From the NCBI GenBank assembly GCA_023480735.1, contig JAMCXB010000047.1, positions 30,486 to 94,485 of the forward strand: a stretch of DNA of 64,000 bases, given 5' to 3'. The notes under the pieces are model-generated. The model was not told the DNA's origin. It ran no database searches and saw only the letters and a list, made by a program, of their open reading frames with translations. Origin of the DNA: Bacteroidota bacterium. Lineage in GTDB: Bacteria > Bacteroidota > Ignavibacteria > Kryptoniales > JAKASW01. This document shows positions 4,174 through 62,367 of the stretch, one piece after another; position 1 is the stretch's first letter, and each line of letters begins with the position of its first letter. The translations under genes were made by a program, and so were the position numbers.

Positions 4174-5454
4174 ATGCCAGACAGAAGAATATTTCGCTCT
4201 AATTCACGCCTTAAGAAGAACTTTAAGTCGCTGCGTCATTACAATTATCGTTTATACTGGATATCGCAGCTGATTTCAGTCACCGGCACCTGGATGCAGA
4301 ACATTGCGCTCGCGTGGCTCGTCGTTACTCTGACGGGTTCTGCAGTTGCCCTTGGTACAGCTACCGCCCTGCAGTTTCTACCGATTCTCCTCCTTTCCCT
4401 TTTTGCCGGTGTCTTCATCGATCGGTTGCCGAAAAGGAGAATCATCATCGCAACACAGAGCCTATCTGCAGTCCAGGCATTTATCCTGTGGATTCTGGTA
4501 GCATTGAAGGCAATAACACTTTGGGAGATCTATGTCCTTTCACTCTTCATTGGATTTGTCAATGCGCTAGACCAGCCGGGACGGCAGGCATTTGTTGCCG
4601 AGATGGTACCTGATGAAGATGTGGGGAATGCGATTGCGCTTAATTCTCTCCTCTTTAACGCAGCCAGGACAGTCGGGCCTGCGATAGCCGGCGTAACAAT
4701 TGCGCTGGTCGGTGTTGCTTCTAGTTTTCTGATAAATGCGTTGAGTTATTTGGCGATAATCGCTGCCCTTTTGATGATGAGAGTATCACAACTCAGGACC
4801 TTCCCTGCAAGGGTAAGCACGACAATGAAGGAAGGGCTGAAAGAGGGGATTTCATTCGCTGTCAACGATCCCGTGATAGCTTCGATCCTTATAGTTCTAA
4901 TATTTGTGGGGACATTCGGGTACAACTACAGCACGGTTCTTCCGCTGCTGGTCAAGTTCATCATGAGCGGCGGGCCGGAAATGTTCGGGGTGCTGACGGC
5001 AGCCTTAGGCATTGGGTCAATGATTGGTGCATTGTTAGTTGCCGGGCGCCAGCAGCCAACGCGTAAATTTATATACACTTTTGCCATGATATTCGGACTG
5101 ATCGATGTGGCCATGGCCCTTTCAAGGAATTACGCTTTGACGGTAATCCTGCTCGTGGCGCTCGGTATTGCCAGCATTTCGTACATAGCCTCCACCAACA
5201 CCTCGCTGCAGATGAATACTCCGATGCATCTTCGAGGCAGGATAATGGGTCTGTACGTGGTCATCTTCGCGGGTAGCACACCAATAGGAGCTTTGTTCAC
5301 CGGTTTTGTTGCTGAGTGGATAGGTACCGCCCCAATGATATTCATAGAAGGGGTACTGTGTCTTATTGGCGTGTTTGCAGGAGTGGCTTATGTCAGGAGG
5401 AAAGCGGTGGTGGTTCAAAGAGAGGAAGTCCCGGAAAGGTCCGGGACTTCCTGA
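4174..5454 (+). CDS. MFS transporter
   Basis: 426 aa, hydrophobic throughout. The N-terminus YRLYWISQLISVTGTWMQNIALAWLV is typical of the EntS-like MFS subfamily. Confidence 0.85.
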   Translation: MPDRRIFRSNSRLKKNFKSLRHYNYRLYWISQLISVTGTWMQNIALAWLVVTLTGSAVALGTATALQFLPILLLSLFAGVFIDRLPKRRIIIATQSLSAVQAFILWILVALKAITLWEIYVLSLFIGFVNALDQPGRQAFVAEMVPDEDVGNAIALNSLLFNAARTVGPAIAGVTIALVGVASSFLINALSYLAIIAALLMMRVSQLRTFPARVSTTMKEGLKEGISFAVNDPVIASILIVLIFVGTFGYNYSTVLPLLVKFIMSGGPEMFGVLTAALGIGSMIGALLVAGRQQPTRKFIYTFAMIFGLIDVAMALSRNYALTVILLVALGIASISYIASTNTSLQMNTPMHLRGRIMGLYVVIFAGSTPIGALFTGFVAEWIGTAPMIFIEGVLCLIGVFAGVAYVRRKAVVVQREEVPERSGTS

Positions 5455-5466
5455 GGACCCCGGATT

Positions 5467-6057
5467 CTACTTACCCGAATCGGGTGATTGCCAATTTTGC
5501 CGGTTCATCATGTTTGACCGTCCCCACATGTTCATATTTCTGCCCATTCCTCCGCCATTTCTCATCATCTCCATCCTGTTCATCATCATTCCACCTCTAC
5601 CCATACGGCCTTGCCATGCACCTGACATTCTGTTGTGTCTGAACATCATGGGATGCTGAAGAACATCTTTCCATATCTTCTGCTGCTCGGGGGTGAGTAT
5701 CGTGTTAACCTCGAACCATCCCTCGAGCCGGTTTGAGCGAAGTTCACCTTGCAGCTTCGCGATGTCTTGTATCTTTGCTGCGAGCGCGTTCTGGTCCGGA
5801 TTAGTGGCCGAAGCCAGTTCAGCATAGTCTAAGCGGGCATGGGCGATGCTGGCACGTATGTCGATTTGCTTCTGCATCAAGTTCAGCCGTATCTTCTGCA
5901 TCTCAGCCTTCTGCTGATCGGTGAGTTTCAATCTGGCGAAGAGCATCGGGACGTGCATCATCGGCATTTGATGCATTCGTGGCGGTTCAGGCTGTGCCAC
6001 AGCTGCTCCTGCGGCGAACAATAATCCGAGTACTGCTACGATCAATTTGCTTCTCAT
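5467..6057 (-). CDS. periplasmic Spy/CpxP/ZraP-family (LTXXQ) protein with Met-rich tails
   Basis: Signal peptide MRSKLIVAVLGLLFAAGAAVAQ. Two LTxxQ motifs (LTDQQ, LTPEQQ). The segments flanking the helical core are rich in Met, Gly, Asn and Arg. Confidence 0.75.
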   Translation of the reverse strand: MRSKLIVAVLGLLFAAGAAVAQPEPPRMHQMPMMHVPMLFARLKLTDQQKAEMQKIRLNLMQKQIDIRASIAHARLDYAELASATNPDQNALAAKIQDIAKLQGELRSNRLEGWFEVNTILTPEQQKIWKDVLQHPMMFRHNRMSGAWQGRMGRGGMMMNRMEMMRNGGGMGRNMNMWGRSNMMNRQNWQSPDSGK

Positions 6058-7761: not shown

Positions 7762-9212
<1,451 letters not shown>

Positions 9213-15081: not shown

Positions 15082-15111
15082 CTACGGCACAATCTTGTTC
15101 AGCGGATACTC
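15082..15111 (-). repeat. orphan copy of the last 10 codons of hisG (att-like direct repeat, left junction)
   Basis: Reads GAG TAT CCG CTG AAC AAG ATT GTG CCG TAG on the minus strand. 27/30 identical to 24722-24751, with a 22-nt perfect core at 15084-15105. Confidence 0.8.
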
Positions 15112-17243: not shown

Positions 17244-17835
17244 ATGGGAAAGATAGGAGTAAAAGTAATGCCTCACTGAAAGGGTTATTTCTCTCGCAAA
17301 GGCGCCAAGAACGCAAAGAAATGTTGACGAGCGGTTCGCTTTGCGAGCGGCTTGGCGAGAAACCATAAGTGTGGGGTTACGAGTAAAATACTGGCTTTCG
17401 CTAGCAGCTTTTTTGCTGCTACAGCTTAGCAGCGCTATGATTGCGCAAGGACAACAAGTACTACATGGCACAGTTCCAGCGAGCATCACCAGATTCGGCT
17501 TAAAGCCGGTCTCACGCCTGGATAGTACGAAGCAATTGAATCTCGCAATGTGCCTGCCTGTACGAAACCAGAGTGCATTGAAGAATCTTCTAGGAGAGAT
17601 ATATGATCCGGCCAGCACGGATTATCATCATTATCTAACAGTGGAACAGTTTACCTCACAATTTGGCGCGACGGAATCAGATTACCAGTCGGTGGTTGCC
17701 TTCGCGAAGGCAAATGGATTCACTGTGACTGATACGTCTCCCAATCGCATGATTCTGGATGTGAGCGGAACTGTAGCGAGTATTGAAAAAGCTCTGCACG
17801 TGACGAGTTCTTACGAGACTCCCATCTCACGGATA
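17244..17835 (+). pseudogene. S53 (sedolisin/kumamolisin) peptidase remnant: pro-domain only, 5' end split by a MITE
   Basis: Matches the pro-kumamolisin activation-domain pattern (LGEIYDPASTDYHHYLTVEQFTSQFG...GTVASIEKALHV). The catalytic domain is absent. The 3' breakpoint is approximate. Confidence 0.7.
17265..17380 (+). mobile_element. 116-bp MITE-like element, copy A
   Basis: Differs from copy C at 1 of 116 positions. Imperfect TIR (gtaatgcctcac / gtgtggggttac). 8-bp TSD GAGTAAAA at 17257-17264 and 17381-17388. Confidence 0.8.
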
Positions 17836-17865
17836 ATGCGGATTTGGACTAATTGTGTACGGATA

Positions 17866-17935
17866 AAAAACCGCCCATTTGGGTGGTTGCGCGACCGGAG
17901 GGGACTTCGTAAGTTATGTTTGTCGTGGTTCGCGC
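17866..17935 (+). repeat. leader block, paralogous to 15751-15820
   Basis: See 15751-15820. It lies at the point where S53 homology is lost, upstream of the 18169 gene. Confidence 0.55.
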
Positions 17936-18082
17936 TTAATGGTTCCTCAAGATTGAAATTAGCGGAAATTCAAGAGGAGCGCTTAGTGGCAATGAGAAAT
18001 ACCAAGGTAATCAGTTAAGCAACGGTTCACTGTCACGGCGAGTTCGCAGCATACAACTCAGGGTCGCGTGCCATGCAGTGTT

Positions 18083-18101
18083 GTCGCGTTATTAACGCGA
18101 C
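18083..18101. promoter_or_regulatory. 19-bp perfect inverted repeat (candidate operator)
   Basis: gtcgcgtta-t-taacgcgac, with 9-bp arms, 68 nt upstream of ATG 18169. Confidence 0.35.
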
Positions 18102-18168
18102 GTGATCTTTGTCTGGCTGTAACCGTGTTATGAATGACCACTATCAGCCTAGATACGAAGGAAGGTGT

Positions 18169-19560
18169 ATGAATTGTGGGCCAGTGTTGACAATTAGATT
18201 CCTTTTCTTGGTGTTCGCTTTAATCTTTTCTTATGTGCCAAAGGTTATTCCGCAGGATTTCCAGGTAAGCACCAGTGGAGCTGCAACCCTTTCAGTACAA
18301 GTTGCAAGCGATTCGTCCGGCCGTTTTGTCGTAGTCTGGGATGACGGCCGAAACATCAGGATACCTTATGGCGGGACAGGTAGTGAAGGTGATATCTATG
18401 GTCAAAGATATGACAACAAAGGGGCTCCGGTCGGCAACAATTTTAGAATATCTGATGACAGTTCTGAATGTGACAAATCATTTGCAGCACAATTCTTACC
18501 CCGAATCTCCATGAACAAGAAAGGGGAGTTTGTCGTCGTTTGGATGGACAGTAGGCCAAAGGCTACGCCGGATAATTCAACTGCCCCCCTTGAATTCAAC
18601 GTGTATGCACAACGGTTCGATTCAAGAGGTGAGCCTCTGGGGAGCAATTTCCTGGTGGACAGTCCAGCGATTGGGGGCCAATTGAATCCAGATGTCGTCA
18701 TGAGGAATGACGGCAGTTTTGTTGTTATATGGGTTAATAGTCTTGAAAGTGAAGGTGGGGTTAACAAGGTCTTCAGAGTGTATCTTCAGTCTTTTGATTC
18801 CAAGGGGAGGAAAGTGGGTTTGATTCAGAAGCTGAACCTCTACGCGCAAGAGCCCAGAATAGCGCTTTTCGATGATGGCGATTTTGTCATCGTGGCAGAC
18901 ACACTTGCTCAGGTATTCTCTTTTCCTTCAGATGAGGTGGGAGTTCCTTTCAGGATTTCGAAGGGTTTCACAAGGGTGGTCAAAACCAGCGATGAAAATT
19001 GCACAGATATATATGGGCAGAGATTTAACCTAGATCTGTCCAGGATACGGGGAGACCTAAAGATAAGTCATGAATCAGATAAGTCTGAACAACTTGTTCC
19101 TGCCTGCGCCATGGAAAACAATACCATACAAATTGCTTGGCTTGACGCAAGGGGTATGAGGTACTTCACGAACGTGTACCCTCCACAATTGGAGATCGAT
19201 GTATGGGCTACAATTCAAGATTTTAATAATCCAACTGAGGGGCTTCCGACTCACTGTTCGCAGCCGCCATCGCATATTCCATCCTCTTTCAAGTTCTTTC
19301 AAAGTTATCCTAACCCTACCAATGGTATGGCCGCTTTTGCGTACGATTTACCTGAGGATGGGACCGTGAGACTCACTTTATACAATATCCTAGGGGAGGA
19401 GGTGACGTTACTGGGGGATGAATTTCAAAAAGCAGGGCACTACACCAGAGATTTCATGATTGACAATCTATCCAGCGGCATATATCTCGCAAGATTGTCG
19501 GTTAAGACCATTTCAGGAAGTACTCACACAAGCACAATCAAACTCGTCTTACTTAAGTAA
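18169..19560 (+). CDS. secreted repeat protein with T9SS C-terminal sorting domain
   Basis: Signal peptide MNCGPVLTIRFLFLVFALIFS. Internal repeats of the form GxFVVVWxD...DIYGQRFD..GxPxGxxF. C-terminal YPNPTNG...VRLTLYNILGEEV...GIYLARL matches the Por secretion tail. Confidence 0.8.
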   Translation: MNCGPVLTIRFLFLVFALIFSYVPKVIPQDFQVSTSGAATLSVQVASDSSGRFVVVWDDGRNIRIPYGGTGSEGDIYGQRYDNKGAPVGNNFRISDDSSECDKSFAAQFLPRISMNKKGEFVVVWMDSRPKATPDNSTAPLEFNVYAQRFDSRGEPLGSNFLVDSPAIGGQLNPDVVMRNDGSFVVIWVNSLESEGGVNKVFRVYLQSFDSKGRKVGLIQKLNLYAQEPRIALFDDGDFVIVADTLAQVFSFPSDEVGVPFRISKGFTRVVKTSDENCTDIYGQRFNLDLSRIRGDLKISHESDKSEQLVPACAMENNTIQIAWLDARGMRYFTNVYPPQLEIDVWATIQDFNNPTEGLPTHCSQPPSHIPSSFKFFQSYPNPTNGMAAFAYDLPEDGTVRLTLYNILGEEVTLLGDEFQKAGHYTRDFMIDNLSSGIYLARLSVKTISGSTHTSTIKLVLLK

Positions 19561-19607
19561 GCGTGTGCATTTTGTCGCTCATTCACTGTGAAAAATACGG
19601 AGGAAAA

Positions 19608-19754
19608 ATGAAGACTCTAAAGAGAACCCCTTTTGCTATGTTCCTGATACTTTCAGCAGTCTTTCTTTCCAAAGGAATTTCTTACGGACAATTATCAGGC
19701 GGGAACGGAGCAAAATATACTACTAGGTTTTCGTCAAGCTTATTCGACTTATAA
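19608..19754 (+). CDS. small secreted peptide (48 aa), hypothetical
   Basis: GGAGGA SD 5 nt before the ATG. MKTLKR, a hydrophobic core and then ...QLSGGNGAKYTTRFSSSLFDL. Ends 27 nt before the next start. Confidence 0.45.
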   Translation: MKTLKRTPFAMFLILSAVFLSKGISYGQLSGGNGAKYTTRFSSSLFDL

Positions 19755-19781
19755 TTGGACACTGACGCACCGGAGGTTGAA

Positions 19782-19994
19782 ATGAATGTTGCAGCAGAGC
19801 AACTCAGCAAGCGGGAACAGGAGGTTTTGCGGCTGATTCTGGAGGGATTTGAAAACAAGGCGATTGCAAAGAAGCTTTTCATTAGTGTAAAAACGGTTGA
19901 ATTCCATAAAGAGAATCTTAAACAGAAATTGCAACTGAAAACCAATAGAGAATTGTATGAGTTGAACAATGGTCATATAATATTTGAGGACTGA
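19782..19994 (+). CDS. GerE/LuxR-type HTH regulator, DNA-binding domain only
   Basis: [50 protein letters not shown] before ATG 19782. Confidence 0.8.
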
Positions 19995-20075
19995 ACAGGT
20001 GAGCATTCCATCCAAAGCGATGTCCTCAACGCTTAGCTTTGAACGCGCTATCGAAGGTAAAATAAGGACTTGCCA

Positions 20076-21149
20076 ATGAGAACGCCGAAGATCCTGATTC
20101 TTTTCCTCCTTTCCGGTGCGCCGTTATGCGGCCAGGAACTACCAACCGAAGGCTTATTCGAGTTCAACTCGATCTTTCAGCAGAAGAACATCAGAGTGTC
20201 GGACAGAATCAAAGAGGACTTGAATCTGCAGGGTTCATTTATTCAACAGACCTACTACAATGCAAACAAAGACACGCGGATAGATTCCATTCAACCAATA
20301 AGGCGGGTCTCTACAATTCAATACTTCTCAAATGGTGATCAAAACGTGTTGCAGTTGCTGGACGATGGATCTCACTTTGACGATGGCTCAAGCGACGCAA
20401 TCTACGGAAATGTTTCAATTGGTGAATTCGACCGGTTTCGTACTGATGAATCCACCATCGATGTTCAGTTAGACACGATGGGAATTAATTATTTTATGAT
20501 TTACCCTCGGGTTACTTACTTGCCGGAGCCGCCCACTATAATAATCCCTCAAAATAGTTCCACGGTATCATCGACAATGCCTCAAGTTGCCTGGAGAATA
20601 GACCCGAGAGCAGATGGAGCGGGCGTAATCCTTCTTGCAGGTGCTCCGGTCCTGGGAGAGAAACTGAAAGGCGTAATTTGGCAGGAATCGTTCGCGCAGA
20701 ATGGGAATAGCCTCTTTACGGAAAAGTTGCCGTTCAAGTTGGAAAACAAGAAAGAGTATACGTTGATAATTTGGTCATACACAAACACTAAAGTGGTTGA
20801 TGGCGTCTTGGATCGAGCTGCATATTCGATGGAGTGGAGCAGGTTTCGCGTAGATACCTCACTGCAGAATGGCGATTTGGTTCTCTTGCAAAATTTCCCC
20901 AACCCCTTTAGTTCTGTGACGTTCATTAGTTATGTTTTGCCTAAGGATGGAGACGTTTCGATAAAGATATTTGATGTTTTGGGGAATCAAGTAGCTACAC
21001 TGGTACACGAAAAAGAATCGCAGGGCGAGCACTATGCTGTATGGTGCGGACAGAATGCTCTTGGATGTAACGTCGGCTCGGGTGTGTACCTCTACAATCT
21101 TATTTTCGACCATCACTCAAGAACCGGGAAATTACTACTGCTCAGATAG
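20076..21149 (+). CDS. secreted hypothetical protein with T9SS C-terminal sorting domain
   Basis: Signal peptide MRTPKILILFLLSGAPLCGQ. C-terminal NFPNPFSSVTFISYVLPKDGDVSIKIFDVLGNQVATL...GVYLYNL. Confidence 0.8.
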   Translation: MRTPKILILFLLSGAPLCGQELPTEGLFEFNSIFQQKNIRVSDRIKEDLNLQGSFIQQTYYNANKDTRIDSIQPIRRVSTIQYFSNGDQNVLQLLDDGSHFDDGSSDAIYGNVSIGEFDRFRTDESTIDVQLDTMGINYFMIYPRVTYLPEPPTIIIPQNSSTVSSTMPQVAWRIDPRADGAGVILLAGAPVLGEKLKGVIWQESFAQNGNSLFTEKLPFKLENKKEYTLIIWSYTNTKVVDGVLDRAAYSMEWSRFRVDTSLQNGDLVLLQNFPNPFSSVTFISYVLPKDGDVSIKIFDVLGNQVATLVHEKESQGEHYAVWCGQNALGCNVGSGVYLYNLIFDHHSRTGKLLLLR

Positions 21150-21302
21150 ATAAACAGGAGTTTTCCCCCGTTGTTCTCCTGTCTGCCCAAGGATACCTTT
21201 CATATGCGAAGTGGAGAACCGTGACGGATCGAATCCGGAGCGGGTGCGGCCTGTTTCCGTGGGTTCTCAGGATTGGTAAACCAAAAAAGAACGGAGGTTA
21301 AT

Positions 21303-21797
21303 ATGGGACGAGCTAATTCAATGATTCGCTTTATAGTTGTCCTTGCCGGGATGCTTGCGGTTTCCGCATTGTCGTCATACGCGCAAGAAAGAACCTTGGA
21401 TGATTTAGTAAGAGACTCTCAGGTGATTGTTATTGGTAATGTTAAGAATGTTCAAAGCAAATGGGACAATCAAAAGAGAAACATCTGGACTTACGTCACA
21501 ATTAGCAGCCAAAGCTATCTGAAAGGCGACATTACACAGGGCGAATTGGTGGTTAGAATCCTTGGCGGCGCGGCGAACGATACAAGCCAGTACGTCTCTG
21601 GCAGTCCAAGGTTCGACGTCGGTGAGCATGTCTTGACTTTTCTGGGGAAGGATGTTCAAGATTTCTACTACGTAAACGGTTGGGAAGATGGCAAGTACAC
21701 GTACAGGGATGGTGCTTGGATTGGAAAAAATTCTGAATTCCCCGGGCAACTCGTCACACAAATAAAGTCTATAGTAAAACTTCAATCAAAACAATGA
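21303..21797 (+). CDS. secreted hypothetical protein
   Basis: GGAGG SD. Signal peptide MIRFIVVLAGMLAVSALSSYAQ. No family recognised. Lies immediately upstream of the metalloprotease gene. Confidence 0.6.
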   Translation: MGRANSMIRFIVVLAGMLAVSALSSYAQERTLDDLVRDSQVIVIGNVKNVQSKWDNQKRNIWTYVTISSQSYLKGDITQGELVVRILGGAANDTSQYVSGSPRFDVGEHVLTFLGKDVQDFYYVNGWEDGKYTYRDGAWIGKNSEFPGQLVTQIKSIVKLQSKQ

Positions 21798-21825
21798 ACC
21801 CTCTTAAACAATGAAGGAGTTTTCC

Positions 21826-23976
21826 ATGGCTACGATGAAGAAGTTCGTGCTTTGTGTTATGTTCATCTGGCTCTTGTTTCCCGCTACATCTCTTTACGCC
21901 TACAAGTATGTCGGATATAGATACACAAAGGGCAATTTTCCCGCTTTCTATGTCAATCAGGCGGGTACCCCCGATTGCTCTGGCGAATTCACTGCTATTC
22001 AAAATGCTCTACAGACTTGGAATAATGTAAACACAACCTATGTTGCTTTTCAGTATGGGGGTACAACCACGACAAATACGATGGGACTGGACGGTACAAA
22101 TCTTATGATGTGGGTAGAGAGCGGCTGGCGAACTATATTTCCAGGCAGTAATGCGGTAGCGGTAAATTCCACGTGGTATTCCGGTGGTGTTGCCTACGAA
22201 TCAGATATTCTCTTTAATGGTGAAGACTACACCTGGTCCGATAACGGAGCGGCTGGCAAATATGATGTCAAGGATGTTGCCACCCATGAAATAGGTCACT
22301 CAGTTGGTCTTGACGATCTCTACGACGATACGGACGCCGATAAGACTATGTACGTTTATATTGGGACTGGCGAGACGAAGAAATCAACCCTAGATCCGGA
22401 CGATGAAGACGGTGCTAGGTACGTAAATTTCGAGGCCCAGACCTCAGGTACACTTTCGGAGGACCAGGTCTGGTTGGTATCGCTAGACGGCACCTCCATC
22501 ACGGTCCCCGGGAATTTGACCATACCTTCGGGTCGAACCTTAGACATAGAATCGGGGCTTGCTGTCACTTTCAGCGGCTACTATAAGCTCCGTGTCGAGG
22601 GGGTACTTATAGCCAGTGGTTCTCCGAGTAGTCCGGTCACTTTTCAGGGCAACGGCTCCTCCGGCTCGTGGTTCGGCATCGAATTCTACAATATCTCAAG
22701 TGGTTCGAGCCTCCGCTATTGCACAATAAAGGATGCCAGCTACGGATTGAACCTGATCTCGAGCTCTCTTCCCGCTAATCCCCTCATCATCAGGAACAAT
22801 AACCGCGGAGTCAACTGTACCAACTACAGCGATCCGAGTTTTATGTCGACCGTATTCGACTATAACAACTGGGACGTCTACGGTGATGGTACCTCGACAC
22901 CGCTGCTTGGAACATCGATAGGCCCGGGGTATAACAGTTTCCGCGACCCCGGATACTACCAGATATATTCAACCTATTCCGGTACCATCAGCGCCGAGGG
23001 GAACTGGTGGGGAAGCTCTCCCGCCTATCCCATTGTTACTTCGAATGTGGATTATTCCAACTGGCTTTCCGTTGATCCGAATCCATCCATGAAACAAACA
23101 GGCGGTAAATCCGCCGTTGTCGTCCAGTCCGTATCGCCTTCTTCACCGGGGTTGCAGAACTCTCGGCCAGGCGTCACAAGCTCCGACTCTGGCACAACGC
23201 AACTGGATGCAGCGTATCGTTTGTATCTCGACGGAGATTATGAAAATGCACTCCGGGCTTTTGAAACCGTGACGACAAACTATCCGGATGACTTTGCAGC
23301 CTGCCGCGCCCTGGTTTTTGCCGGGCGGTGCCTCGATAAACTTGTCCGGTCTTCGGATGTTCTCACCGAACTGAACGATGTCTCTGCTGCACAAGCAGGC
23401 ACCAGGGTAAACACATTCGCCGAGGCAAGGCGCACGTATCAATATCTGAAGGAGGGGAAGTACCAGGAAGCGCTTGCGCAAGCCGTGCAGATTGCCGGTT
23501 CGAGCAGCGACACGGCTCTTATGAAGTTCGCGCTTTATGATGCCGGGAGCATCGATTGGTATGACCTTGGTAACAAGGGAGATGGCGAGAAATACTATCG
23601 CCAGTTGATCTCCCGTTTCCCTGGCGATCCGCTCAGCGCTTCTGCACTTGTAGCCATGGGGGAAACCACCTCGCCTTCTGCTCCTCAGCAGCAAGCCAGC
23701 GCTGTAACAGAAGAGAACCAAACAGTACTTGGGAATTATCCCAATCCGTTCAATCCGGCGACTGTGATCTCATACGGTCTTAATAAAGGAGGTCATGTGA
23801 CACTGAGAATCTACGATGTACTTGGAAAGGTTGTCGCAACACTTGTCGATGGTAATGAGAATGCGGGCCAACACAGCGTGCAGTTCAATGGCCAGAACCT
23901 TGCCAGCGGGATTTATCTCTATCGCTTAACTGCACTTGGAGTCGATCAGGTGAAGAAGATGATCCTCATGAAGTGA
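21826..23976 (+). CDS. metzincin-like zinc protease fused to a beta-helix region, a TPR-like region and a T9SS C-terminal domain
   Basis: HEIGHSVGLDD (HExxHxxGxxD) with a downstream KTMY Met-turn candidate. NWWGS motif at the end of parallel-beta-helix-like repeats. C-terminal NYPNPFNPATVISY...RIYDVLGKVVATL...GIYLYRL. Confidence 0.8.
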   Translation: MATMKKFVLCVMFIWLLFPATSLYAYKYVGYRYTKGNFPAFYVNQAGTPDCSGEFTAIQNALQTWNNVNTTYVAFQYGGTTTTNTMGLDGTNLMMWVESGWRTIFPGSNAVAVNSTWYSGGVAYESDILFNGEDYTWSDNGAAGKYDVKDVATHEIGHSVGLDDLYDDTDADKTMYVYIGTGETKKSTLDPDDEDGARYVNFEAQTSGTLSEDQVWLVSLDGTSITVPGNLTIPSGRTLDIESGLAVTFSGYYKLRVEGVLIASGSPSSPVTFQGNGSSGSWFGIEFYNISSGSSLRYCTIKDASYGLNLISSSLPANPLIIRNNNRGVNCTNYSDPSFMSTVFDYNNWDVYGDGTSTPLLGTSIGPGYNSFRDPGYYQIYSTYSGTISAEGNWWGSSPAYPIVTSNVDYSNWLSVDPNPSMKQTGGKSAVVVQSVSPSSPGLQNSRPGVTSSDSGTTQLDAAYRLYLDGDYENALRAFETVTTNYPDDFAACRALVFAGRCLDKLVRSSDVLTELNDVSAAQAGTRVNTFAEARRTYQYLKEGKYQEALAQAVQIAGSSSDTALMKFALYDAGSIDWYDLGNKGDGEKYYRQLISRFPGDPLSASALVAMGETTSPSAPQQQASAVTEENQTVLGNYPNPFNPATVISYGLNKGGHVTLRIYDVLGKVVATLVDGNENAGQHSVQFNGQNLASGIYLYRLTALGVDQVKKMILMK

Positions 23977-24721: not shown

Positions 24722-24751
24722 TCACGGCACAATCTTGTTCAGCGGGTACTC
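24722..24751 (-). repeat. hisG 3' terminal 30 nt (att-like direct repeat, right junction)
   Basis: GAG TAC CCG CTG AAC AAG ATT GTG CCG TGA. This is the partner of 15082-15111. Confidence 0.8.
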
Positions 24752-41019: not shown

Positions 41020-41173
41020 TTGGCACCTCCTTCTGGATTTGTGGTAAGTGTTTAGGAAAATTTAGTCTCATGCATGAAAAACTTCAAGGGTAATAAGGGA
41101 TGCCGCCGCGATATGAGGCCTGCCCCTTCTAAACAACTGTGTGGAAATCCGGCCTCGGGATTTGCTTCGTCAC

Positions 41174-41289
41174 GTAACCCCTCACTTATGGTTTCTTGCC
41201 AAGCCGCTCGCAAAGCGAACCGCTCGTCAACATTTCTTTGCGTTCTTGGCGCCTTTGCGAGAGAAATAACCCTTTCAGTGAGGCATTAC
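41174..41289 (-). mobile_element. 116-bp MITE-like element, copy B
   Basis: 114/116 identical to copy A in reverse complement. 9-bp TSD CTTCGTCAC at 41165-41173 and 41290-41298. TIR 10/12. Confidence 0.8.
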
Positions 41290-41346
41290 CTTCGTCACGG
41301 CTTTGCACATTGCTTAAAAACGGAGGAATAGATATATTTTTTTAGA

Positions 41347-42576: not shown

Positions 42577-42960
42577 ATGATCCTGCGCTCCGTGTCAACG
42601 AGTTTGCCGATGCCGAGCATTGTCAGGCTGTCGGTATTCTACAGGGTGCCTCACAAGCGAGTGATTCTAACGAGGAAGAATATACTGCGCAGGGATGGTA
42701 ATAGATGTCAGTACTGCGGCCGCGGCGATCTTCCTCTGACTGTCGATCACGTCATTCCGAAGACTCGTGGGGGCGAAGAAACCTGGGAGAACCTCGTCTG
42801 CGCCTGCATGAAGTGCAACAACAAGAAGGGAGACCGGACTCCCGAAGAAGCTGGATTGAAGCTAATGTCTGTTCCGCGCAGACCGAGCCATGTGGCGTTC
42901 ATCCGTCATTTTGTCGGAAGAATTGACGAGAAATGGAAGCCATACCTTTTTATGAAGTAG
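42577..42960 (+). CDS. HNH endonuclease (5' end unresolved)
   Basis: HNH core CQYCG...LTVDHVIPKTRGG...NLVCACMKCNNKKG. The conserved family N-terminus VLLLNQNYEPLTICSWKKAVILLYLGKAELIE is encoded in-frame upstream (from about 42469), but no ATG, GTG or TTG precedes it in that frame. Confidence 0.75.
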   Translation: MILRSVSTSLPMPSIVRLSVFYRVPHKRVILTRKNILRRDGNRCQYCGRGDLPLTVDHVIPKTRGGEETWENLVCACMKCNNKKGDRTPEEAGLKLMSVPRRPSHVAFIRHFVGRIDEKWKPYLFMK

Positions 42961-44718: not shown

Positions 44719-46111
44719 CGAAGAAGAGAAATCAGAAAATAGTGATAACCATCTTGACGGCGAGAGAAACCAACATCGCCGCGAGGTGATAGACAATGAG
44801 CCGGCACATGACGACGAAATCACACCGCACCCTGCCGACAATGTCGATTTCTCTGAATTCGCACAAGGGGCGGATGAAGAGCAATTGGAGTCGAGCGGGT
44901 CGGAATCTGCAGCCGGATTGACACCTTCTTTTGAATCAGGTGATCCAGCAAACGGGGAAGGTGAACACGGAGCGGACGAGAGTTGCCCCGGATTTGAACA
45001 ACCAGAATATAATACCAGGTCAGGGTTGAGAATCTTCAACGGTACAGACGAGACCGCTCCCCAACCGGAATCGGTAGGGGGTGCGATCGGGGAAGATAGT
45101 AATCCGGTAAGCGATGAGGATAACGCCGCTGAACCGGTGCAGCCGGATGAGACTGTTCAAGAATCACCTGATGAGAACATTGAGAAGGCTGCCGAAGAAG
45201 GGGAGCCTGTCGAAGCTTCACAGACAGAAGGTGAAGAACAGCATCAACCAAACCCGCAGGATGGGAAAACAGAGCCTGCCATCACCGACGAAAATGTCGC
45301 TGAATCGGCCGAAGAAGCGAATTCCGACGAAGAGAAGAAGGCAGAACTGGTTGACAGGACGCTTGACGGCATAGGAGAAATTGTGAAGGCTGACGAGGAA
45401 GTCGAGGGTGCGGAAGCTGATCTCAGAGAAGAAAGCGTCGATGAGCTGGCACACATCATCGAAGCGATAGTCTTTGCTTCCGACGAGCCGCTTACAGCCA
45501 ACACGATAAAGTCCGTTCTGGATGCCTCTCATACTTTCGGGCGTCTCAATGCCGACATGATTTCGGACCGCATCAACGCGCTTAACAATAAGTATGAGTC
45601 TGAAGGGAGCGGTTTCCGGATTGTCGAGATCGCCAACGGATACCAGTTCGCGACTCGGAAGGAAATGGCACAGTGGGTGTCCAATCTCTTCAAGGAGAGA
45701 TCCAAACGGAAGCTGTCCACATCGGCTCTCGAGTCCCTGGCGATTATTGCCTATAAGCAGCCGATAACGAAGCCGGAGATAGAGTCTATAAGAGGTGTCA
45801 ACGTCGATTACGTACTCCACAACTTGTTGGAGAAAGAACTCGTGACTGTTGTTGGCCGAGCCGAAACGGTCGGCAGGCCGCTTCTCTACGGTACCACGCA
45901 GAAATTCCTGAAAATCTTTGCGCTGAAGAGTCTCGATGACCTGCCGAAACTCCGCGAGATCGATGAGATTATCAAGGAGATTAAGAGCAAAGGTGCGGAG
46001 GAGTCGATCCAGCTGGAGATAACGGCGTTGAGCGATCAGACGCCTTCGGAAGACAAGGCTGAAGCGGAAGCGAAGCCAGAAAATAGAGAAGACAATGCCA
46101 CAGACAGGTGA
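44702..46111 (+). CDS. scpB: segregation and condensation protein B with a long acidic N-terminal extension
   Basis: The ScpB core starts near IIEAIVFASDEPL and continues with GYQFATR...AYKQPITKPEIESIRGV. It is preceded by roughly 240 aa of D/E-rich low-complexity sequence. Confidence 0.88.
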   Translation: MSYLPDEEEKSENSDNHLDGERNQHRREVIDNEPAHDDEITPHPADNVDFSEFAQGADEEQLESSGSESAAGLTPSFESGDPANGEGEHGADESCPGFEQPEYNTRSGLRIFNGTDETAPQPESVGGAIGEDSNPVSDEDNAAEPVQPDETVQESPDENIEKAAEEGEPVEASQTEGEEQHQPNPQDGKTEPAITDENVAESAEEANSDEEKKAELVDRTLDGIGEIVKADEEVEGAEADLREESVDELAHIIEAIVFASDEPLTANTIKSVLDASHTFGRLNADMISDRINALNNKYESEGSGFRIVEIANGYQFATRKEMAQWVSNLFKERSKRKLSTSALESLAIIAYKQPITKPEIESIRGVNVDYVLHNLLEKELVTVVGRAETVGRPLLYGTTQKFLKIFALKSLDDLPKLREIDEIIKEIKSKGAEESIQLEITALSDQTPSEDKAEAEAKPENREDNATDR

Positions 46112-47013: not shown

Positions 47014-47736
47014 ATGAAGGATATCTCCTGGTTCGTTTCAGTTTGCTCCAGCAATGGCCTCACGGTCAGTGAAAATCAGGCCGCCAAGTTCGAGGCATAC
47101 AGGCGGCTTCTCGTCGATTGGAACCGCCGGATAAATCTCATGTCGAGAAAAGACGAGGAAAACTTTTATCCGAAGCATGCGATTAATTGCATCTCATTCC
47201 TCTTTAAAAGTAACCTGAAGCCCGGAGCGAAGATTTTGGATCTTGGTACCGGCGGCGGTTTGCCGGGAATACCGTTGAAGATTCTCAACCCTGACCTGAA
47301 CCTCTGTCTGGTAGACTCCATTGCAAAGAAGACTACTGCAGTCTCGTCAATCTCCGGTGAGTTGGATCTGGCCAACGTGGAGGTAGTGACTGGGAGAGCC
47401 GAGGAACTTGCAAAAACAGATGAATTTAAGGGGCAGTTTGATTATGTTATTAGCCGTGCGGCAGGAAAGTTGGGCGAATTAGCCAAATGGTCACGAGGAT
47501 TTCTGAAGGGAGCGGAAGTCCGAATCGGCAGCACCATTCCAGCCGGAACGCTTATTGTATTGAAGGGTGGCGAGCTTACGGACGAATTGAAGCACGCCAG
47601 GAATCTGAAGTTCGTCGAATCTATATCGGTAGACGAGATTACTTTCGACGGAATGGATGAATTAGATAACAAGGATAAAAAACTGGTTGTCGTAGAATAT
47701 AGAAAAGCAGATGCGTCGGTTTGGAGGATAAATTGA
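47014..47736 (+). CDS. rsmG: 16S rRNA (guanine527-N7)-methyltransferase
   Basis: [11 protein letters not shown] and the SAM motif [17 protein letters not shown]. The track ORF starts at 46984. Confidence 0.9.
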
Positions 47737-60596: not shown

Positions 60597-60731
60597 GTAA
60601 TGGGGCACTTATCGCGTTATTTTCTCGCAAGGGCGCAAAGCCCGCAAAGAAAAACAACTATTTCTCCGACGGAGTCCTTCCGAGAATCTCGCTTTGCGTA
60701 CCCGGCGAGCTTTGTCCCGGCAGGGGACGAC
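60597..60731 (+). repeat. possible degenerate relative of the 116-bp MITE
   Basis: Starts with gtaatg. Shares gttatttct, cgcaaRgg, cgcaaagaaa, tcgctttgcg and ggcgag blocks in the same order. No TSD found, and the 3' boundary is uncertain. Confidence 0.35.
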
Positions 60732-60787
60732 TTCGTCGCGAGAGACGTACCTGAGCGGATACCTATGTTGACAGAAAAGAAAAACTC

Positions 60788-62086
60788 GTGTATCTTAAAA
60801 AAGCTTTTGCTAAAGGTAAGGTAGTGAGTCAGGGAGCTCAATACATACACATGTTGCGAAGTTCGATAAGACTATTACGCAACTGCTACCGGGCATACAG
60901 CTCGGGTATTCCGGAGTACAATCAAAGCTACTGCGATTTCGGCAACAACGCTGGGGATCAATATGGGCTGAATAGCGTTCACGACAATTATCCTTACAAC
61001 GCTGCTGTAGGGCTCTCTTATCCCTCCGACCCAGCTGCCCTGACTGCGTATAAGAACTGGTGGGGAAGCAATCCCCCTGATGCGTCACTCTTCTACTGTT
61101 CTTCTGCCTGTCAGCTGAATAACGGCAACTCCCTTTCTTCCGACCCATGATCCGGGATACCGCTGCCGTCAGTTGAAACCAAAGGTAACCTTGCCGCACA
61201 TGTTATAGCTTCGGTGAAATCACAGCCCGATGCCGTCGCGGAATCTATGGCTCAGTCCGCCAAAGTCTCCGGCCCCATTTCCACGGACTCGCTATCTGCA
61301 GGGACCCAGCTCCGATCACAGGGGAAATTCAAAGAGGCTAAGGACTTCTTCAAATCATACTTAGGCAGACATCCCGACAATCAGGCGGCTTATGTTTATC
61401 TATATAGTTGTGCAGACACGGGAACGACCCCGGATATAGTTGAATACTTCAAGTCGTTGCCAAAACAGGCTGCCAGGGCACACAAACTTCTTCTGGCTAA
61501 TCTGTATCTGAGGGAAGGGAATACGCAGGCTGCGAAGAACGTGAACAATGATATCATTGCGGCAAACCCAAAGACTTCGCTTGCCGAGAGGGCGAAGCTC
61601 AATAACTTTTACATTGCGTTGTACAATGACAATGATCCGCAAACGGCATCTTCGATTCTAAACGACATTGAACAAAGTTCGTCTCTATCTACGACGATGG
61701 AAATATCGGATGCCGAGCATTCACTCGCTGTCTATGTCGGCCCTAAAACCGGAACGATGCCACGTGCAAGCTTTAAGCGGTCAGCCAACAGCTCTCAGGA
61801 TCTAACAACTAGCGATCTTCAAGAGCAAAGCGGCTTGCTGGAAAATTATCCGAATCCCTTTAACCCATCGACAACAATACGCTACCAGCTTCCGAAGCCG
61901 GGAATGGTGAGTGTCAAGGTTTATGACGTTCTCGGACAGGAGGTGGCGACTCTGGTCAACAGCTATCAGGAGTCGGGCACTCACACAGTCAACTTCAATG
62001 GCGATCATCTCGCGAGCGGCATCTACTTCTACCGGCTGACCGCACCGGGAATTACAATCGTCAAGAAGATGTTGATGACGAAGTGA
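60788..62086 (+). pseudogene. 5'-truncated, TGA-interrupted paralog of the island beta-helix/TPR/T9SS protein
   Basis: The two track ORFs (60788-61150 and 61214-62086) share one frame and are separated only by TGA 61148-61150. The domain order NWWGS..., TPR-like, NYPNPFNP tail mirrors the C-terminal half of the 21826-23976 protein. No protease domain is present. Confidence 0.65.
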
Positions 62087-62153: not shown

Positions 62154-62185
62154 CCTTTAAGTACCCCGGAGCCCCGTGTCCGCTG

Positions 62186-62301
62186 GTAATGCCTCACTGA
62201 AAGGGTTATTTCTCTCGCAAAGGCGCCAAGAACGCAAAGAAATGTTGACGAGCGGTTCGCTTTGCGAGCGGCTTGGCGAGAAACCATAAGTGTGGGATTA
62301 C
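62186..62301 (+). mobile_element. 116-bp MITE-like element, copy C
   Basis: 115/116 identical to copy A. Flanked by GTCCGCTg (62178-62185) and GTCCGCTa (62302-62309). Ends 66 nt upstream of nuoA. Confidence 0.8.
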
Positions 62302-62367
62302 GTCCGCTATTCCTTCTCCTTTGATTTTTACGTCCCCGTTGTTTAGATTTTTTAAAACGAGATTGAA

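What the first reader, a model, noticed from the sequence alone, without database searches (positions are those of the whole stretch)
17265..17380. New 116-bp MITE-like element family: three near-identical copies with TIRs and 7-9 bp target-site duplications
The copies are at 17265-17380 (+), 41174-41289 (-) and 62186-62301 (+). By hand alignment, A and C differ at 1 position and B differs from A at 2.

The termini form an imperfect inverted repeat: GTAATGCCTCAC at one end, and GTAACCCCTCAC as the reverse complement of the other end in copy B. The match is 10/12 in B and C and 9/12 in A.

Every copy is flanked by a direct duplication of host DNA:
- GAGTAAAA at 17257-17264 and 17381-17388
- CTTCGTCAC at 41165-41173 and 41290-41298
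- GTCCGCT(g/a) at 62178-62185 and 62302-62309

The element has no transposase ORF, so it is non-autonomous. Its interior carries mutually complementary blocks (ctcgcaaag/ctttgcgag and gcgccaag/cttggcg) arranged so that they cannot all pair at once, which suggests alternative folds if it is transcribed. The GTAATG terminus and 8-9 bp duplications faintly recall IS1-family ends, but that resemblance is too short to count as evidence.
Basis: seen in the sequence. Interest (0 to 1): 0.7.

Follow-up and report, generated by a model that had tools for sequence, protein, structure and literature searches.

The report
New MITE family, 8-bp target duplications
The three 116-bp repeats are real copies of a small, non-coding "hitch-hiker" transposon (a MITE) that has recently jumped around the genomes of two uncultured Bacteroidota/Kryptonia-like bacteria; this is a previously undescribed family, but an ordinary kind of element.

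Summary
Three copies sit at the stated coordinates, with 0-2 mismatches, imperfect inverted ends and flanking duplications.

Fourteen more complete copies occur in a second genome, MAG WY2.bin60. They fall into length classes of 104, 116, 118, 119 and 121 bp. Of the 17 complete copies, 15 have exact flanking duplications: 11 of 8 bp, 3 of 9 bp and 1 of 7 bp. All duplicated sequences differ. One further copy has an 8-bp duplication with one mismatch, and one has none.

Two related genomes carry clean empty sites with a single copy of the target, for copies A and B. Copy A interrupts a signal-peptide coding sequence that is intact in the relative.

A 165-bp sister family shares the same ends, has an 8-bp duplication, and also has an empty site. 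A decayed relative lies at 60597-60752.

This is therefore a genuine MITE moved in trans by a DDE transposase. The exact GTAA...TTAC termini and the 8-bp duplication fit the IS66 family better than IS1. No autonomous parent was found, so that assignment is an inference (about 0.5).

The "alternative folds" are a by-product of a 5-bp deletion: the 121-bp form is one near-perfect hairpin.

Verdict: a new member of a known kind, of modest interest.

The parts
17265..17380 (+). MITE copy A (116 bp). It is inserted 7 codons into a signal-peptide coding sequence.
17257..17264. Left copy of the 8-bp target-site duplication GAGTAAAA. The right copy is at 17381-17388.
   Evidence: Relative L039 has a single CAGTAAAA at this position.
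17244..17264 (+). First 7 codons (MGKIGVK) of the gene interrupted by copy A. The reading frame resumes at 17389 (YWLSLAAF...).
   Evidence: The L039 ortholog reads MKKTAVKYWLSVTAF... without interruption.
41174..41289 (-). MITE copy B (116 bp), in the divergent intergenic region between etfB and an NlpC/P60 gene.
41165..41173. Left copy of the 9-bp target-site duplication CTTCGTCAC. The right copy is at 41290-41298.
   Evidence: L020 has one CTTCGTCAC followed by the same right flank.
62186..62301 (+). MITE copy C (116 bp). It lies 99 bp after a T9SS-cargo gene and 66 bp before nuoA.
62178..62185 (.). Left copy of the 8-bp duplication, GTCCGCTG. The right copy at 62302-62309 is GTCCGCTA (one mismatch).
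60597..60752 (+). Decayed older relative of the family. The left 57 nt are recognisably homologous (GTAATGGGGCACTTATCGCGTTATTTTCTCGCAAGGGCGCAAAG...). The right end is eroded. The right boundary is approximate.
   Evidence: nhmmer E = 1.8e-5, sequence, alignment.

Best explanation
[quoted passage not shown] A DDE transposase encoded elsewhere binds the roughly 13-30 bp imperfect terminal inverted repeats (GTAATGCCTCACT... and ...AGTGAGGGGTTAC). It cuts at the exact GTAA/TTAC termini and joins them to target DNA cut with an 8-bp stagger, occasionally 7 or 9 bp. Repair of that stagger creates the flanking duplication.

Shown:
- repetition, terminal inverted repeats and lack of coding capacity
- fixed-length duplications of unrelated sequence
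- empty orthologous sites
- mostly intergenic location, but one insertion inside a coding sequence
- presence in two divergent lineages at 98-100% identity
- a sister family with the same ends

Inferred:
- The mobilising enzyme belongs to the IS66 family, possibly its single-ORF ISBst12 group. This rests on the GTAA termini and the 8-bp duplication (sub-claim probability about 0.5).
- The near-identity between lineages reflects recent activity and horizontal spread of the element or its helper.
For: Copies and duplications.
- Three window copies with 0-2 mismatches.
- 16 exact left-end hits in genome contigs, all in MAG WY2.bin60, 14 of them complete.
- Duplication tally over 17 complete copies: 11 exact 8 bp, 3 of 9 bp, 1 of 7 bp, 1 of 8 bp with one mismatch, and 1 with none. 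All duplicated sequences differ.

Empty sites.
- L020 (GCA_023474965.1, about 80-83% nucleotide identity) has a single CTTCGTCAC, and homology resumes exactly at window 41290.
- L039 has a single CAGTAAAA and an intact coding sequence where copy A sits.

Independent support.
- A Logan contig breaks 31 nt into copy A, as expected for a multi-copy repeat.
- Independent assemblies reproduce the MAG insertions.
- The sister 165-bp element has terminal repeats GTAATGCCTTACT / GTAATGCCTCACT, an 8-bp duplication GCCGGGAT and an empty site in L030.
- The element folds as a rod-like hairpin.

IS66 signature in the literature.
- The inverted repeat begins GTAAGCG and the direct repeats are 8 bp (PMC11946415).
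- ISPa75 has GTAACCGTCCGGGCA (PMC12888890).
- ISDge4, of the ISBst12 group, has GTAACTGCTCAGCA with an 8-bp direct repeat (PMC12898284).
Against: No autonomous element with these ends was found.
- None in the window or in about 378 kb of related loci. A crude IS66 motif scan was also negative.
- None in plasmids, viral contigs or JGI metagenome contigs, where the only two hits are unrelated 21-nt matches.

The ends share only GTAA, and partly GTAAC..CTCA, with published IS66 ends. They do not carry the canonical GTAAGCG.

One copy (L010) has no duplication.

Two MAG hits (L005, L009) are cut by the end of the stored chunk. Whether they are MITEs or a full-length element is unknown.
Confidence: 0.85

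Rival explanations
1. It is a MITE, but it is mobilised by a transposase of another family that makes 8-9 bp duplications (IS1, IS1595, ISL3, IS6 or IS256) or by an undescribed family. On this view the GTAA termini are coincidental.
For: No parent was found. The left end preceded by G (GGTAATG-CTC) resembles the IS1 right inverted repeat as I recall it. The ends lack the canonical IS66 GTAAGCG.
Against: The duplications abut GTAA and TTAC directly. The base before GTAATG varies among the 17 copies, so there is no GG terminus as in IS1, IS6 or ISL3. The right end, GTAACCCC, does not fit GGnnnTG. The modal duplication is 8 bp, not the 9 bp usual for IS1. Among ISfinder families as I recall them, only IS66 and ISBst12 are listed with GTAA ends.
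Confidence: 0.35
2. It is a non-mobile repeated palindrome (REP/BIME/REPIN-like) or a small structured RNA gene family conserved for function.
For: The element forms a stable hairpin (z -3.7 to -6.9), lies mostly between genes, and is highly conserved between two lineages.
Against: REP and REPIN elements do not make target duplications and tend to occur in arrays. Here 15 of 17 copies have exact 7-9 bp duplications of unrelated sequence, and relatives have empty sites with a single target copy. There is no Rfam match. One copy sits inside a coding sequence. No promoter-like site lies inside the element, and the one weak terminator-like hit (62292-62307) merely overlaps the last bases of copy C.
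Confidence: 0.02
3. It is an assembly or binning artefact that creates repeated 116-bp blocks.
For: The source is a metagenome-assembled genome.
Against: The same insertions appear in independent assemblies: Logan, ENA MEGAHIT, NCBI MAGs and JGI. The three window copies lie on one contiguous sequence, and each has its own duplication.
Confidence: 0.01

Closest known systems
Bacterial MITEs in general (for example Correia/NEMIS of Neisseria, RUP of Streptococcus pneumoniae, Nezha of cyanobacteria, MITE-Aba12 of Acinetobacter)
   Same: Size of about 100-170 bp, terminal inverted repeats, no coding capacity, rod-like hairpin, dispersed and mostly intergenic copies, fixed-length target duplication, length variants produced by internal deletions and duplications.
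   Different: The sequence is unrelated to any of these. The duplication is 8 bp, whereas Correia and RUP give TA and Aba12 gives 9 bp. The host is an uncultured Bacteroidota/Kryptonia-like lineage. The helper element is unidentified.
IS66 family, including the single-ORF ISBst12 group (for example ISDge4, ISPa75, ISPsko1)
   Same: Both termini begin exactly 5'-GTAA. The target duplication is 8 bp, occasionally 9. The right end GTAACCCCTCACT matches the ISDge4 end GTAACTGCTCAGCA at 9 of 13 positions (PMC12898284).
   Different: There is no transposase gene. The canonical GTAAGCG is not present. No IS66-type element with matching ends was recovered, so the relation rests on two short features.
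IS1 family
   Same: 8-9 bp duplications. The left end resembles GGTAATG.CTC when the flanking base happens to be G.
   Different: The flanking base is not conserved. The right end does not fit GGnnnTG. The modal duplication is 8 bp rather than 9.

Membership tests
MITE (non-autonomous DDE transposon derivative) | Short (under about 300 bp) with no transposase coding capacity | tested here: met
   Copies are 104-121 bp. Only short open frames of 38 codons or fewer run through the unit.
MITE (non-autonomous DDE transposon derivative) | Terminal inverted repeats | tested here: met
   GTAATGCCTCACT against GTAACCCCTCACT, 11/13 in most copies. Similarity extends with gaps to about 30 bp.
MITE (non-autonomous DDE transposon derivative) | Target-site duplication of characteristic length and of differing sequence at each copy | tested here: met
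   15 of 17 copies have exact duplications (11 of 8 bp, 3 of 9 bp, 1 of 7 bp). One more has 7 of 8 matching, and one has none.
MITE (non-autonomous DDE transposon derivative) | Multiple dispersed copies | tested here: met
   Three intact copies and one decayed copy in the window. One truncated copy lies on another contig of the same MAG (P0124). At least 16 copies are spread over 14 contigs of WY2.bin60.
MITE (non-autonomous DDE transposon derivative) | Empty orthologous or paralogous sites with a single copy of the target | tested here: met
   L020 for copy B, L039 for copy A, and L030 for the 165-bp sister family. Copy C was not tested.
MITE (non-autonomous DDE transposon derivative) | A cognate autonomous IS with the same terminal repeats | tested here: inconclusive
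   Not found in the window, 378 kb of loci, plasmids, viral contigs or JGI contigs. Two MAG hits are cut off (L005, L009). The complete genomes could not be scanned.
IS66 family derivative | Termini begin 5'-GTAA | tested here: met
   Both ends of all 17 copies, and of the 165-bp sister element, start with GTAA and abut the duplication directly.
IS66 family derivative | 8-bp (8-9 bp) direct repeats | tested here: met
   The modal length is 8 bp. The family feature is stated in PMC11946415 and PMC12898284.
IS66 family derivative | 20-30 bp inverted repeat with the canonical start GTAAGCG | tested here: not met
   The ends read GTAATGC and GTAACCC. Published members also deviate: GTAACCG in ISPa75 (PMC12888890) and GTAACTG in ISDge4 (PMC12898284). 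This weakens the assignment but does not exclude it.
IS66 family derivative | An IS66-type DDE transposase (PF03050) in the same genome that recognises these ends | not testable with these tools
   The whole MAGs cannot be listed. A crude motif scan of the held sequence was negative.
IS1 family derivative | GGnnnTG at both termini | tested here: not met
   The base before GTAATG varies (a, c, g or t). The right end is GTAACCC.
REP/BIME/REPIN | No target duplication, often arranged in arrays, associated with a RAYT gene | tested here: not met
   Duplications are present and the copies are isolated singletons.
Any Rfam RNA family | Covariance-model match | tested here: not met
   No hit at gathering threshold in the window. 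At E <= 1 the only hit is a chance mir-15 match in the flank.

The most novel reading that the evidence does not exclude
The two families, the 104-121 bp one and the 165-bp one, are the visible footprint of an IS66/ISBst12-type transposon that has recently moved horizontally between divergent Kryptonia-like Bacteroidota. The MITEs are 98-100% identical while neighbouring orthologous proteins are only 65-76% identical. The parent is absent from, or unassembled in, every one of 185,579 species-representative genomes. The more radical version is that the helper is a transposase type not yet catalogued.
Probability: 0.3. Interest if true: 0.4.

Novelty: new member of a known kind. Interest (0 to 1): 0.3.

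Why it matters
The finding documents recent transposition, gene disruption and probable horizontal spread of mobile DNA in an uncultured hot-spring-type FCB lineage, for which almost no mobile-element biology is described.

If the IS66 link is confirmed, the two MITE families give a minimal natural definition of the DNA ends that an IS66/ISBst12 transposase recognises. The mechanism of that family is still poorly understood.

There are also practical uses. The element explains contig breaks in k-mer assemblies of these organisms. It explains spurious 'hypothetical protein' and fusion gene calls (P0121-P0124). It could also serve as a strain-typing marker.

Tried and rejected
1. Parent IS by DNA.
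- The left-end 20-mer in genome contigs returned only MITE-sized copies in one MAG.
- The same 20-mer in JGI metagenome contigs returned two unrelated 21-nt matches.
- A degenerate terminal-repeat pattern in viral contigs gave 0 hits.
- The whole MITE against plasmids gave only chance 34-nt hits.
- Terminal-repeat pairs and GTAA...TTAC pairs with an 8-bp duplication, up to 4 kb apart, in all held DNA gave only MITEs.

2. Parent by protein. A regex for IS66 transposase motifs recalled from memory, run on 378 kb in six frames, found nothing. This is a weak negative.

3. Six-frame peptide trick. Concatenated MITE open frames were used as a protein query. This found more assemblies of the same insertions and one truncated copy, but no parent.

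4. Synteny between the MAG's MITE loci and the window, to look for empty sites. Only paralogous T9SS/BNR domains matched.

5. Exact look-ups of NuoA and EtfB were not on record, so the empty site for copy C remained untested.

6. An apparent 132-bp length difference between L040 and L041 turned out to be a gene-calling difference. The DNA is identical.

7. Scans for promoters or terminators inside the element found nothing meaningful.

8. No covariation analysis was attempted. The copies are too similar to carry any signal.

Full report
**Observation**

They differ from copy A by 0, 2 and 1 positions. No shuffle of the window gives a match. The flanking duplications are present as described:
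- GAGTAAAA for copy A
- CTTCGTCAC for copy B
- GTCCGCTG / GTCCGCTA for copy C

The termini are imperfect inverted repeats, matching at 9-10 of 12 positions.

**Host**

The window is a housekeeping chromosomal region. It carries purH, PBP2/rodA, lysS, scpAB, etfAB, nuoABC and many T9SS-sorted proteins. Its proteins belong to an NCBI MAG labelled 'Bacteroidetes bacterium', with locus tag M1469_ and a contig of 137,671 bp. The nearest LysS relatives, at 90% identity, are unnamed Bacteroidota MAGs. Named hits further down the list are Candidatus Kryptonia/Kryptoniota and Ignavibacteria.

**More copies**

The left-end 20-mer occurs at 16 places among 185,579 species-representative genomes. All 16 are in one MAG, WY2.bin60 (JAKAGT01), on 14 contigs. 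Fourteen are complete. Two are cut by the end of the stored chunk (L005, L009).

The alignment of 17 complete copies shows positions 1-73 and the last about 30 nt almost invariant. All length variation is confined to one internal spot:
- The 121-bp form has ...GCTTTGCGAGCTTTGCGG...
- The 116-bp form lacks CTTTG.
- The 104-bp form has lost 12 further bases between two GCTT repeats.
- Single 118-bp and 119-bp variants also exist.

**Target-site duplications**

| Duplication | Copies |
|---|---|
| 8 bp, exact | 11 |
| 9 bp, exact | 3 |
| 7 bp, exact | 1 |
| 8 bp, one mismatch (copy C) | 1 |
| none (L010) | 1 |

All duplicated sequences are different. An independent blind scan looked for any GTAA...TTAC pair up to 4 kb apart flanked by an identical 8-mer. 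In about 378 kb it returned only these elements and one other, described below.

**Empty sites**

1. Locus L020 (GCA_023474965.1) is syntenic with window 37.7-59.5 kb at 79-83% nucleotide identity. It reads ...CTGGG CTTCGTCAC GGCTTCGCACATTGCTT.... That is one copy of the 9-mer followed by the window's right flank, and the BLAST alignment resumes exactly at window 41290.

2. Locus L039 (Logan SRR31012007) is 100% identical to the window over the 116 bp upstream. It then reads ATGAAAAAGACAG CAGTAAAA TATTGGCTTTC..., with one copy of the target and no element. Its open reading frame, MKKTAVKYWLSVTAFLLLQLGSAMIAQG..., continues for at least 1027 codons.

Copy A therefore sits seven codons into a signal-peptide coding sequence. 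Element plus duplication add 124 bp, which shifts the frame.

A Logan contig of the window's own strain stops 31 nt into copy A, the k-mer length. That is the behaviour of a multi-copy repeat.

**Distribution and age**

Using the MITE's open frames as a protein query retrieved spurious gene calls over MITE copies.
- In ENA, JGI and three further NCBI MAGs, the contigs are 99-100% identical to WY2.bin60 and carry the same insertions. Those insertions are therefore fixed in that species.
- One hit, P0124 (MCL5267406.1), is a truncated variant on another contig of the window's own MAG.

The two host lineages are not close. The ortholog of the gene upstream of copy A is 65% identical in protein, and the next gene 76%. 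Yet the 116-bp copies differ by about 1 base between lineages. The closer relatives L020 and L039 lack the element at the tested sites. This patchy pattern of near-identical copies points to recent activity and probably horizontal acquisition. That conclusion is an inference.

**Relatives of the family**

A profile search found two further elements.

1. A decayed element at window 60597-60752. Its left 57 nt are clearly homologous and its right end is eroded.

2. A 165-bp element in L028/L029 at 8907-9071. It has the same ends (GTAATGCCTTACT... and ...AGTGAGGCATTAC), a different interior and an exact 8-bp duplication, GCCGGGAT. A sister strain, L030, has the empty site with a single GTCGGGAC.

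Two families with one set of ends imply one helper transposase that reads the first 13-25 bp or so.

**Structure**

As single-stranded RNA or DNA the unit is one rod-like hairpin. Folding energies as RNA:

| Form | Free energy (kcal/mol) | z-score |
|---|---|---|
| 116 nt | -43.3 | -3.7 |
| 121 nt | -54.5 | -6.9 |

In the 121-bp form both blocks pair. This is deletion history, not a riboswitch-like alternative fold.

There is no Rfam match. No sigma-70-like promoter lies inside the element, and the only terminator-like hit is a weak 5-pair stem at the edge of copy C.

**Which transposase?**

No autonomous element was found in any searchable collection. The termini are the only clue. The duplications abut GTAA and TTAC directly and the neighbouring base varies, so the element ends are 5'-GTAA...TTAC-3'.

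Published descriptions of IS66 give a 20-30 bp inverted repeat starting GTAAGCG and characteristic 8-bp direct repeats. They also note members in Bacteroidetes/Chlorobi (PMC11946415). Variants include GTAACCGTCCGGGCA in ISPa75 (PMC12888890) and GTAACTGCTCAGCA with an 8-bp repeat in ISDge4 of the single-ORF ISBst12 group (PMC12898284). The last matches the MITE's right end, GTAACCCCTCACT, at 9 of 13 positions.

From my own recollection of the ISfinder family table, IS66/ISBst12 is the only family listed with GTAA ends and 8-9 bp repeats. IS1 ends are GGnnnTG, which the right end fails and which the left end meets only when the flank happens to be G.

I therefore favour an IS66-family helper at about 0.5. 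Another or unknown 8-bp family stands at about 0.35. The remainder is left open.

**Verdict**

This is a genuine, previously undescribed MITE family with a sister family in uncultured Bacteroidota/Kryptonia-like genomes. The mechanism is that of a standard DDE-transposon derivative. It is a new member of a known kind and of modest interest. The main open point is the missing parent.

Noticed in passing
window 17244-23976: The gene interrupted by copy A is also rearranged. Compared with the intact ortholog of at least 1027 aa in L039, only aa 6-146 (window 17383-17805) and aa 608-1026 (window 22501-23757, inside the 721-aa M10 + T9SS-tail ORF) are present. About 4.7 kb of other T9SS-cargo genes lies between them. 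The N-terminal piece with a Pro-kumamolisin activation domain is thus a gene remnant. The end of the MITE also supplies an in-frame GTG at 17371 (VGLRVKYWLS...).
   Followed up: partly
window 60597-60752: A decayed fourth relative of the MITE lies in a roughly 1-kb stretch without recognisable genes, upstream of the T9SS gene at 61214. Its flanks, CTGTGTTG and CTGAGCGG, match at 5 of 8 positions and may be an eroded duplication.
   Followed up: partly
L028/L029 8907-9071; empty in L030 at about 9290: A second MITE family of 165 bp has the same terminal repeats, an 8-bp duplication GCCGGGAT and an unrelated interior. It sits in a toxin-antitoxin-rich, strain-variable island (MNT/HEPN, DUF4258/DUF2283) of the WY2.bin60 species.
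   Followed up: yes
window 45016-45044 and 47270-47298: A perfect 29-nt inverted repeat, CAGGTCAGGGTTGAGAATCTTCAACGGTA, with arms 2.2 kb apart. The arm in gidB/rsmG is native, since L020 has it with 6 substitutions. The other arm lies in the acidic, length-variable N-terminal region of ScpB. It could be a templated insertion or an assembly artefact. It is too long to be chance.
   Followed up: partly
window 15084-15111 and 24724-24751: A 28-nt direct repeat with 27 of 28 positions identical (ACGGCACAATCTTGTTCAGCGG[A/G]TACTC), 9.6 kb apart. Its nature is unknown.
   Followed up: no
L018 2453-2472 / L019 421-440 (JGI Ga0129299_1026215, Ga0209101_1018091): These are the only JGI metagenome hits to the left-end 20-mer. 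They share just 21 nt and then diverge. They lie in a GC-rich, structured-looking non-coding stretch with no Rfam match. They are probably a chance match.
   Followed up: partly
L028-L036 about 5001-5573; L024-L027; L037-L038: Gene callers have produced 'proteins' that read through MITE copies: P0121 and P0123, annotated hypothetical, and P0122, a nucleotidyltransferase fusion. P0124 in the window's own MAG is annotated as a DUF5615 PIN-like protein. All are annotation artefacts caused by the element's open frames.
   Followed up: yes
window 42577-42960 and L020, L022, L023: A small HNH endonuclease gene is conserved between the NlpC/P60 gene and the tRNA-synt_1b gene (Trp/Tyr-tRNA synthetase class) in all four related genomes.
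   Followed up: no
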